This document shows, one piece after another, positions 43,162 to 43,549 of a stretch of DNA of 64,000 nt. The stretch lies in the NCBI RefSeq assembly GCF_016903815.1, contig NZ_CP069973.1. The stretch is one strand, 5' to 3'. Under the pieces are notes generated by a model, which worked only from the letters and a program-made list of their open reading frames with translations, ran no database searches and was not told the origin of the DNA. Source of the stretch: Escherichia coli. GTDB lineage: Bacteria; Pseudomonadota; Gammaproteobacteria; Enterobacterales; Enterobacteriaceae. The translations under genes and the position numbers were made by a program. Position 1 is the stretch's first letter; each line of letters begins with the position of its first letter.

Positions 43162-43422
43162 TCACGAGGACTGAAGTTTCTCGCAATTAAAATTTATCAG
43201 TTTTACTTTCTGCTCTCTGGAAACGCCTGCTTCTTTTTTACCTGAGAGCATTTTTTCGCATTCTGATTTCGTTAGTTTAGATTTTGAATATCTTGTCCAG
43301 TTAGTAGGAGTGCCACCTTCCTTTTCAATAGTGGCGGTAATTTTATACATGAACACCTCCATTATTATTTCCAGTGGTTCGTTTATTTCATCGTTCGAGT
43401 GCTTCTTTTTCACTTCCACCAT
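43162..43422 (-). CDS. ydaC: Rac prophage protein YdaC (DUF1187); start uncertain
   Basis: 86 aa ORF upstream of ralR/recT. Confidence 0.6.
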   Translation of the reverse strand: MVEVKKKHSNDEINEPLEIIMEVFMYKITATIEKEGGTPTNWTRYSKSKLTKSECEKMLSGKKEAGVSREQKVKLINFNCEKLQSS

Positions 43423-43549
43423 AACCGGTTCGGGATTCGCATCCGTTACACTTCGCTCGGTAATATCCTGAAATGGCTTTCACCGTTACTGATGGACAAC
43501 CACAAAATGGACATGGTTTAACATTGTCATATCTCATAATTTTTCTCAT
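43388..43549 (-). CDS. ralR: Lar/RalR-family restriction-alleviation protein; 53 aa in this sequence
   Basis: Hand translation MRKIMRYDNVKPCPFCGCPSVTVKAISGYYRAKCNGCESRTGYGGSEKEALER; below ORF-track size cutoff. Confidence 0.6.
   Translation of the reverse strand: MRKIMRYDNVKPCPFCGCPSVTVKAISGYYRAKCNGCESRTGYGGSEKEALER

What the first reader, a model, noticed from the sequence alone, without database searches (positions are those of the whole stretch)
43388..43549. RalR/Lar-like ORF is only 53 aa and its stop overlaps the ydaC start
The hand-translated frame is recognisably Lar-family but terminates at 53 aa, shorter than I remember for K-12 RalR, and its 3' end overlaps the ydaC start region. 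Either this allele is truncated or the K-12 length I recall is wrong. RalR is reported as a DNase toxin with an antisense RNA antitoxin, so the allele state matters.
Basis: partly seen in the sequence, partly recalled or inferred. Interest (0 to 1): 0.3.

Follow-up and report, generated by a model that had tools for sequence, protein, structure and literature searches.

The report
Natural premature-stop allele of ralR
This E. coli prophage carries a common natural version of the small RalR/Lar toxin gene that is cut short by a single-base stop codon, removing the family's most conserved motif; the toxin is probably dead while its antitoxin RNA gene is intact, which is an ordinary gene-decay event.

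Summary
The window holds the left arm of a Rac-type prophage at ttcA: intR, xisR, rcbA/ydaC, ralR, recT, recE. Compared with K-12 (64 aa), ralR here has TGG→TGA at codon 50.

The stop is derived. Eight other natural haplotypes and the Salmonella and Citrobacter homologues all keep Trp50. W50, N51 and R53 are invariant in 62 of 62 Lar-family sequences, like the four zinc cysteines. Published mutagenesis found that changes at residues 49, 51 and 52 reduce toxicity, and K52Q lacks DNase activity. The truncated protein is therefore most likely inactive.

The antitoxin RNA gene ralA is intact (Rfam 225 bits), and both 16-nt pairing sites are unchanged.

The claimed overlap with the ydaC start is an artefact of the longest mechanical ORF. 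The real rcbA start lies 37 nt after the stop. The ancestral 8-nt overlap has in fact been lost.

The allele is one haplotype found in 307 of 5,426 complete E. coli genomes, including O157:H7, O26, O103 and O111. RefSeq annotates it as RalR without flagging the truncation.

The parts
43388..43537 (-). Truncated ralR (lar) coding sequence: 49 codons plus TGA from the K-12/RefSeq start.
   Evidence: ORF list. RefSeq annotation of an identical genome as WP_001443846.1. Pfam PF14354 and NCBIfam NF007260 matches covering profile positions 1-49 of 64.
43388..43390 (-). Premature stop codon TGA where K-12 and all other sampled haplotypes have TGG (Trp50). The adjacent codon 49 is CGA here and AGA in K-12 (synonymous, 43391-43393).
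   Evidence: Pairwise alignment with K-12. Translations. Ten-haplotype table.
43343..43387 (-). Untranslated remnant of ralR codons 51-64 plus the ancestral TAA stop. It is identical to K-12 and encodes NKRTTGNNNGGVHV* in frame.
   Evidence: Translation through the stop. Alignment.
43400..43415 (-). 16-nt RalA target site in ralR mRNA (AAGTGAAAAAGAAGCA, codons 41-46). It is unchanged and ends 9 nt upstream of the new stop.
   Evidence: Sequence compared with the site given in Guo et al. 2014, PMC4041452. Identical in K-12.
43166..43344 (+). ralA, the 179-nt sRNA antitoxin gene, antisense to rcbA. It is identical to K-12 throughout.
   Evidence: Rfam RF02694, 225.1 bits (gathering score 170), model positions 1-179 of 179. 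K-12 annotation b4714 mapped through the alignment.
43228..43243 (+). 16-nt pairing segment of RalA (TGCTTCTTTTTTACCT, RalA positions 63-78).
   Evidence: Sequence. Positions 63 and 64 match the T63C and G64C mutants in PMC4041452.
43162..43350 (-). rcbA/ydaC homologue (DUF1187), 62 aa, ending at TGA where K-12 has AGA and runs on to 69 aa. The 62-aa form is the common one.
   Evidence: Pfam PF06688, E = 2.2e-38. RefSeq WP_001302840.1. All 7 other intact haplotypes end at 62 aa. Variation is mostly at third codon positions.
43100..43127 (+). Best sigma-70-like promoter match upstream of ralA (TTGACG, 16-nt spacer, AATAAT; 10 of 12). It would start transcription about 30 nt upstream of the annotated RalA 5' end. 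A weaker TACAAT lies at 43151-43156.
   Evidence: Consensus scan and reading of the sequence. This is a consensus match only, not shown to be used.
43550..43600 (-). Strong hairpin in the recT-ralR spacer, ending at the upstream ATG. It contains the 5T (window) versus 6T (K-12) length difference.
   Evidence: Fold gives -22.5 kcal/mol, z = -5.4, with 0 of 200 shuffles folding as well. Indel seen in the alignment.
43593..44402 (-). recT, the upstream neighbour.
   Evidence: Pfam RecT, E = 9e-57. RefSeq annotation.
41610..43062 (-). intR (41610-42845) and xisR (42847-43062), the prophage end next to ttcA.
   Evidence: ORFs. RefSeq annotation of an identical genome. K-12 synteny.

Best explanation
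This is the ralR-ralA-rcbA module of a Rac-type prophage carrying a derived nonsense allele of ralR. One base change (TGG to TGA) turns the invariant Trp50 into a stop. Translation ends inside the C-terminal helix and removes the W-N-(K/R)-R motif and the 11-residue tail. What is left is a 49-aa zinc ribbon that most likely has lost RalR's toxic DNase activity, and probably any Lar-type activity as well. The antitoxin sRNA gene ralA, its 16-nt target in ralR mRNA and the downstream rcbA gene are all unchanged, so the locus is an antitoxin without a working toxin. A side effect is that the ancestral 8-nt ralR-stop/rcbA-start overlap is replaced by a 37-nt untranslated gap. rcbA keeps its own strong Shine-Dalgarno. 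Shown: the mutation, its derived polarity, its frequency, the loss of invariant residues, and the intact RalA. Inferred: the loss of function.
For: Polarity: 8 of 8 other E. coli haplotypes, up to about 10% diverged, keep TGG and 64 aa, and one (L003) shows the intermediate CGA-TGG. The Salmonella and Citrobacter homologues keep RWN(K/R)R. Family conservation: W50, N51 and R53 are invariant in 60 of 60 distant single-domain representatives, and in all 63 rows (62 homologues plus the K-12 query) of alignment A2, the same as C9, C12, C30 and C33. Almost all of the 150 listed hits from the 909-hit search align out to query residues 52-55 or beyond; the few that stop earlier include two RalR-RcbA fusions. 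Experiment from the literature: changes at RalR residues 14, 37, 39, 49, 51 and 52 reduce toxicity, and purified K52Q does not cleave DNA (PMC4041452). Structure model: zinc ribbon plus helix 43-52, so the stop at codon 50 cuts the helix. Full-length haplotypes show purifying selection: 22 of 31 variable sites are at third codon positions, with 18 synonymous-only codons against 8 with an amino-acid change. RalA is intact. The allele is real rather than an error: it is exact in 307 complete genomes and its product is on at least 1,000 contigs.
Against: No functional test of the 49-aa form exists in what I could search. The zinc ribbon and all four cysteines are retained. The truncated product still exceeds the Pfam, TIGR03655 and NCBIfam RalR cutoffs. 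The allele has persisted and spread across several lineages as one haplotype, which is compatible with neutrality but does not prove inactivity. UGA is the leakiest stop codon and its natural misreading inserts Trp (general knowledge), so traces of wild-type protein cannot be excluded.
Confidence: 0.82

Rival explanations
1. The 49-aa zinc-ribbon fragment keeps a function, such as partial toxicity, restriction alleviation or protein binding, so this is a working short isoform rather than a dead gene.
For: The four zinc ligands and all three predicted strands are retained. Family-model scores are still above cutoff. The allele is frequent, in 307 complete genomes.
Against: The missing W-N-x-R motif is as invariant as the cysteines. 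Single substitutions at residues 51 and 52 already reduce toxicity, and K52Q abolishes DNase activity. No other sampled haplotype or genus has a natural short form ending there. Spread as one 3-kb haplotype fits hitch-hiking with the prophage.
Confidence: 0.12
2. The UGA is leaky. Near-cognate tRNA-Trp reads it at a low rate and regenerates full-length, wild-type RalR, so the allele is an attenuated toxin rather than a null.
For: TGG to TGA is the one nonsense change whose natural misreading restores the original residue, and the stop context is UGA-A. Both points rest on general knowledge of UGA readthrough in E. coli and were not tested here. The downstream 45 nt are still in frame and identical to K-12.
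Against: There is no recoding signal. The 34 nt after the UGA are predicted unpaired and the stretch folds no better than shuffles (z = +0.45). Readthrough would be a percent or less (general knowledge), whereas RalR toxicity was shown on IPTG overproduction. The identity of the downstream remnant is explained by the allele's youth, since carriers differ by 0-1 bases in 3 kb.
Confidence: 0.05
3. The short form is ancestral and K-12's 64 aa is a stop-loss extension, or the stop is a sequencing error.
For: K-12 does carry a stop-loss extension in the neighbouring gene rcbA (69 versus 62 aa), so such events do occur at this locus.
Against: For ralR the polarity is the opposite. All other haplotypes and other genera have Trp50, and the residue is invariant family-wide. 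The identical stop occurs in 307 independently sequenced complete genomes.
Confidence: 0.01

Closest known systems
RalR/RalA type I toxin-antitoxin system of E. coli K-12 Rac prophage (Guo et al. 2014, PMC4041452; ralR b1348, ralA b4714)
   Same: Same locus and synteny (xisR, rcbA/ralA, ralR, recT). ralA is 100% identical. Both 16-nt pairing sites are identical. RalR residues 1-49 are identical in amino-acid sequence.
   Different: Codon 50 is TGA instead of TGG, giving 49 aa instead of 64. The product lacks W50, N51, K52 and R53 and the tail. The stop/start overlap with rcbA is lost. There is one fewer T in the 5' spacer.
Lar family of restriction alleviation proteins (Pfam PF14354, TIGR03655)
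   Same: CPxC...CxxC zinc ribbon followed by a helix. Scores are above both curated cutoffs.
   Different: Only profile positions 2-52 of 58 (Pfam) and 1-49 of 55 (TIGR) are matched. The invariant WN-R motif is absent.
Chromosomal type I toxin genes inactivated by point mutation or insertion while the antisense RNA gene persists, such as the inactive hok/sok copies of K-12 cited in PMC4041452
   Same: Toxin reading frame disabled and RNA antitoxin gene retained. It lies in a prophage or cryptic element.
   Different: Here the lesion is one nonsense codon in an otherwise intact gene. The sRNA is also antisense to a second, apparently functional gene (rcbA), which alone could explain why it is retained.

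Membership tests
Lar family (Pfam PF14354 / TIGR03655) | Sequence score above the curated cutoff | tested here: met
   PF14354 gives 38.7-39.0 bits against a cutoff of 28.6. TIGR03655 gives 40.3 against 39.6, only just passing.
Lar family (Pfam PF14354 / TIGR03655) | Four zinc-ribbon cysteines (C-P-x-C ... C-x-x-C) | tested here: met
   C9, C12, C30 and C33 are present. They are invariant in alignment A2.
Lar family (Pfam PF14354 / TIGR03655) | Invariant C-terminal W-N-(K/R)-R motif at the end of the helix | tested here: not met
   The stop codon replaces W50, and N51, K52 and R53 are not translated. The motif is invariant in 60 of 60 and 62 of 62 relatives.
Lar family (Pfam PF14354 / TIGR03655) | Alleviates type I (EcoKI) restriction | not testable with these tools
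   Needs a phage plating or transformation assay.
RalR toxin (NCBIfam NF007260 equivalog) | Score above the equivalog cutoff | tested here: met
   126.9 bits against a cutoff of 113, but only profile positions 1-49 of 64. The full-length protein scores 166.
RalR toxin (NCBIfam NF007260 equivalog) | Full 64-aa product including residues 51 and 52, shown to be needed for toxicity and DNase activity | tested here: not met
   Truncated at residue 49. Residue requirement is from PMC4041452.
RalR toxin (NCBIfam NF007260 equivalog) | Position between recT and rcbA in a Rac-type prophage at ttcA | tested here: met
RalR toxin (NCBIfam NF007260 equivalog) | Non-specific DNase activity and growth inhibition on expression | not testable with these tools
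   Needs expression and cleavage assays.
RalA sRNA (Rfam RF02694) | Full-length covariance-model match above the gathering score, with the 16-nt complement to ralR | tested here: met
   225.1 bits against 170, model positions 1-179 of 179. The 16-nt sites are identical to K-12.
RcbA / DUF1187 (Pfam PF06688, NCBIfam NF007283) | Family match over the whole domain | tested here: met
   PF06688, E = 2.2e-38, positions 1-61 of 61. NF007283 gives 138.7 bits against a cutoff of 92.

The most novel reading that the evidence does not exclude
The TGG to TGA change is an attenuation switch rather than simple decay. Low-level UGA misreading by tRNA-Trp would regenerate authentic full-length RalR, so toxin or anti-restriction dosage would depend on termination efficiency (RF2 activity, stress). 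This tuned allele would then have been favoured in STEC lineages carrying a more complete, still inducible Rac-type prophage.
Probability: 0.04. Interest if true: 0.4.

Novelty: already known. Interest (0 to 1): 0.12.

Why it matters
The stakes are modest.

**Annotation.** RefSeq names the 49-aa product "endodeoxyribonuclease toxin RalR" without marking it truncated, because it still clears the equivalog cutoff. Toxin-antitoxin censuses that count ralR by name will therefore score about 300 complete genomes as carrying a functional RalR/RalA pair when they probably carry only the antitoxin. These include O157:H7, O26, O103 and O111 strains.

**Use of K-12 as a reference.** K-12 is the typical form for ralR (64 aa) but the atypical form for the neighbouring rcbA (69 aa from a stop-loss; 62 aa elsewhere).

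**Biology.** The allele offers a natural control for testing whether RalA or rcbA have roles independent of the toxin.

Tried and rejected
- **Sequencing error.** Rejected, because the same 81-nt haplotype is exact in 307 complete genomes.
- **The short form is ancestral.** Rejected by the haplotype and outgroup comparison.
- **Selenocysteine or another programmed recoding of the UGA.** No hairpin follows the stop.
- **Solved structures or a nuclease fold that would explain the role of the C-terminus.** The profile search of the PDB and Foldseek on the model gave only generic zinc ribbons (aIF2-beta, Elf1, eL43, RPC10), with no hit at E <= 0.001.
- **Supplementary Figure S3 of Guo et al., for the exact non-toxic substitutions.** It is not held as text.
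- **Papers mentioning this truncated allele in O157 or STEC.** None found in the searchable library. This is not proof of absence.
- **Using strain E2865 to annotate the whole window.** It diverges further into the prophage, with an IS3 in ydaU, so I used ON470614.1 instead.
- **The RalA promoter.** It could not be assigned. The best consensus match lies about 30 nt too far upstream of the mapped 5' end.

Full report
**What is at the coordinates**

The mechanical ORF list shows an ATG-to-TGA frame of 53 codons at 43388-43549 on the minus strand. Its neighbours are:
- ttcA at 40623-41558
- an integrase at 41610-42845
- an excisionase-like ORF from 42847
- a DUF1187 ORF ending at 43162
- RecT from 43593
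- an 866-aa RecE at 44395-46995

Pfam assigns the 53-aa product to the Lar restriction-alleviation family (PF14354, E = 1.2e-9, 38.7 bits against a cutoff of 28.6). It also confirms DUF1187, the putative excisionase and RecT for the neighbours.

This is the left arm of a Rac-type prophage inserted next to ttcA, as in E. coli K-12. The prophage is less decayed than K-12 Rac: it still has Q, holin, endolysin and Rz. It is 100% identical over 22.4 kb to the deposited record ON470614.1.

**The truncation is real and is one base**

K-12 annotates ralR at 195 nt, giving 64 aa: MRYDN...ALERWNKRTTGNNNGGVHV.

Aligned base by base over 510 nt, the window differs from K-12 at five places (coordinates checked):
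- one fewer T in the run upstream of ralR (about 43555)
- AGA to CGA at codon 49 (43393, synonymous)
- TGG to TGA at codon 50 (43388)
- AGA to TGA at rcbA codon 63 (43164)
- C to A at 43096

Translating through the stop gives ...EALER*NKRTTGNNNGGVHV*. The rest of the gene is therefore still there, in frame and identical to K-12.

From the reference start codon the product is 49 aa, which is how RefSeq annotates identical genomes (WP_001443846.1). That ATG is conserved in all sampled haplotypes but is not the annotated start.

**The claimed overlap with ydaC is an artefact**

The 86-aa ORF at 43162-43422 does overlap the ralR stop. However, DUF1187 homology begins only at its residue 26, and RefSeq starts the gene at 43350. 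A GGAGGT Shine-Dalgarno sits four bases upstream of that ATG. The true gap between the ralR stop and the rcbA start is therefore 37 nt.

In K-12 and every full-length haplotype the ralR stop and the rcbA start do overlap, as ATGTATAA (8 nt). The premature stop has abolished that overlap rather than created one.

**Which state is ancestral**

I fetched eight other natural haplotypes from complete E. coli genomes, spanning up to about 10% divergence over ralR-rcbA, and tabulated them.
- All eight encode a 64-aa RalR with TGG at codon 50.
- One (L003) has CGA-TGG, so the synonymous CGA is an older polymorphism on which the TGA arose.
- The Salmonella and Citrobacter homologues (61-64 aa) also keep R-W-N-(K/R)-R.

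The window's stop is therefore derived.

For rcbA the polarity is reversed. The window and all seven other intact haplotypes end at TGA after 62 aa. K-12's 69-aa form is a stop-loss extension.

**What the stop removes**

A whole-library HMMER search with K-12 RalR found 909 representatives at E <= 1e-3. Almost all of the 150 listed matches extend to query residues 52-55 or beyond; the few that stop earlier include two RalR-RcbA fusions.

In a MAFFT alignment of the 60 short single-domain representatives, W50, N51 and R53 are invariant (60 of 60), exactly like C9, C12, C30 and C33. The tool alignment A2 (63 rows) lists the same invariant columns, plus P10.

An AlphaFold2 model built on A2 (mean pLDDT 77.8) shows three strands (17-22, 25-30, 36-40), a helix at 43-52, and a disordered tail from about residue 54. 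The stop therefore cuts the helix just before the invariant motif.

No relative has a solved structure. Sequence-profile and fold searches return only generic zinc ribbons, none significant.

Experimentally, Guo et al. [quoted passage not shown]

Across the full-length haplotypes ralR varies mainly at third codon positions: 22 of 31 variable sites, with 18 synonymous-only codons against 8 with an amino-acid change. The full-length protein is therefore under purifying selection.

Taken together, the 49-aa product is most likely inactive as a toxin. This last step is inference, not measurement.

**The antitoxin side**

Rfam's RalA model (RF02694) matches 43166-43344 on the plus strand end to end at 225 bits, against a gathering score of 170. 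The sequence is identical to K-12 b4714.

The 16-nt pairing segments described by Guo et al. are both unchanged:
- AAGTGAAAAAGAAGCA in ralR, at window 43400-43415 (minus strand)
- TGCTTCTTTTTTACCT in RalA, at window 43228-43243 (plus strand)

The target site ends nine bases upstream of the new stop.

The best sigma-70-like match upstream of ralA is TTGACG-16-AATAAT at 43100-43127 (10 of 12). It would start transcription about 30 nt before the annotated 5' end. A weaker TACAAT lies at 43151-43156. I could not decide between them.

The locus therefore keeps an intact antitoxin RNA and an intact rcbA, with a disabled toxin.

**How common it is**

- The 81-nt haplotype centred on the stop is exact in 307 of 5,426 complete E. 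coli genomes. The K-12 haplotype is exact in 1,109, many of them laboratory derivatives. Several hundred genomes carry other full-length variants.
- Carriers include O157:H7, O26, O103, O111 and non-STEC human isolates.
- Over 3,081 nt, an O157:H7 carrier differs from the window by 1 base and an Egyptian urinary isolate by 0. K-12 differs at 68 positions. This indicates a single origin spread with this prophage arm.
- The exact 49-aa protein is on at least 1,000 contigs in the large collection, where the counter saturates.
- It still exceeds NCBI's RalR equivalog cutoff (126.9 against 113 bits, profile positions 1-49 of 64; full length scores 166). That explains why it is named RalR and not flagged.

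**Rival readings**

- *A functional short isoform.* This cannot be excluded without an assay. It is disfavoured by the invariance of the lost motif and by the published point mutants.
- *Readthrough of UGA by tRNA-Trp.* This would regenerate the wild-type protein. It rests on general knowledge and was not tested. No recoding structure follows the stop, and the expected level is very low compared with the overproduction used to show toxicity.
- *Sequencing error, or an ancestral short form.* Both are refuted.

**Verdict**

The feature is a common, catalogued loss-of-function-type allele of a known gene in a known module. The overlap claim is an ORF-calling artefact. I found no paper describing the allele, but that search is not exhaustive, and the finding would not surprise a specialist. 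Interest is low.

Noticed in passing
window 43162-43164 (rcbA stop); K-12 locus L002 2032-2241: K-12's 69-aa RcbA/YdaC is the atypical form. The window and all 7 other intact haplotypes end at TGA after 62 aa, and K-12 has AGA there (a stop-loss adding RIALYSN). PGAP applies the name 'rcbA' mostly to the 69-aa form and calls the 62-aa form 'DUF1187 family protein' (one exception).
   Followed up: yes
window 43162-43350 (-): rcbA behaves as a protein-coding gene across haplotypes. 16 of 22 variable sites are at third codon positions, and 16 codons vary only synonymously against 5 with an amino-acid change. It also has a GGAGGT Shine-Dalgarno. This sits awkwardly with the suggestion in PMC4041452 that ydaC encodes no protein and acts only as the template strand opposite RalA.
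   Followed up: partly
proteins P0012 and P0015; corresponds to window 43228-43243 and 43400-43415: Two deposited E. coli proteins are RalR-RcbA fusions. P0012 joins RalR 1-46 to RcbA 41-62, exactly at the shared AAAAAGAAGCA of the 16-nt RalA/ralR repeat. The repeat described as the sRNA pairing site also acts as a deletion hotspot that removes most of ralA.
   Followed up: partly
window 43550-43600 (-): There is a very stable hairpin in the recT-ralR spacer (-22.5 kcal/mol, z = -5.4, 0 of 200 shuffles as good), ending at the upstream in-frame ATG. The 5T/6T length difference to K-12 lies in its 3' arm. It could be a recT terminator or a ralR 5'-UTR element.
   Followed up: partly
locus L010 (NZ_CP195951.1) 460-781; protein P0005 from strain F2_81: There are other independent lesions at the ralR 3' / rcbA 5' boundary. 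An IS1A inserted at rcbA codon 6 separates full-length ralR from most of ralA. A 69-aa RalR has its tail replaced after residue 54. The module seems to be eroding in several ways.
   Followed up: no
distant homologues: Many distant Lar-domain proteins carry 2-6 tandem copies of the domain in proteins of 105-364 aa (the 'stretches' column). The 50-residue zinc-ribbon-plus-WNxR unit is therefore often used as a repeat.
   Followed up: no
window 41600-64000: The prophage here is more complete than K-12 Rac. It has sieB, repressor/cro-like genes, O/DnaC-like replication genes, Q, holin, endolysin and Rz, followed by trkG. It is 100% identical over 22.4 kb to ON470614.1 and ON470616.1, which look like prophage regions deposited as phage genomes.
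   Followed up: partly
loci L005, L006, L008 versus window 43228-43243: In three haplotypes RalA position 75 (A13 of the 16-nt segment) is C, with no compensating change in ralR. In L009 and L010 the ralR site changes A to G opposite RalA U63, giving a wobble pair. Only the 11-nt core of the pairing is strictly conserved.
   Followed up: partly
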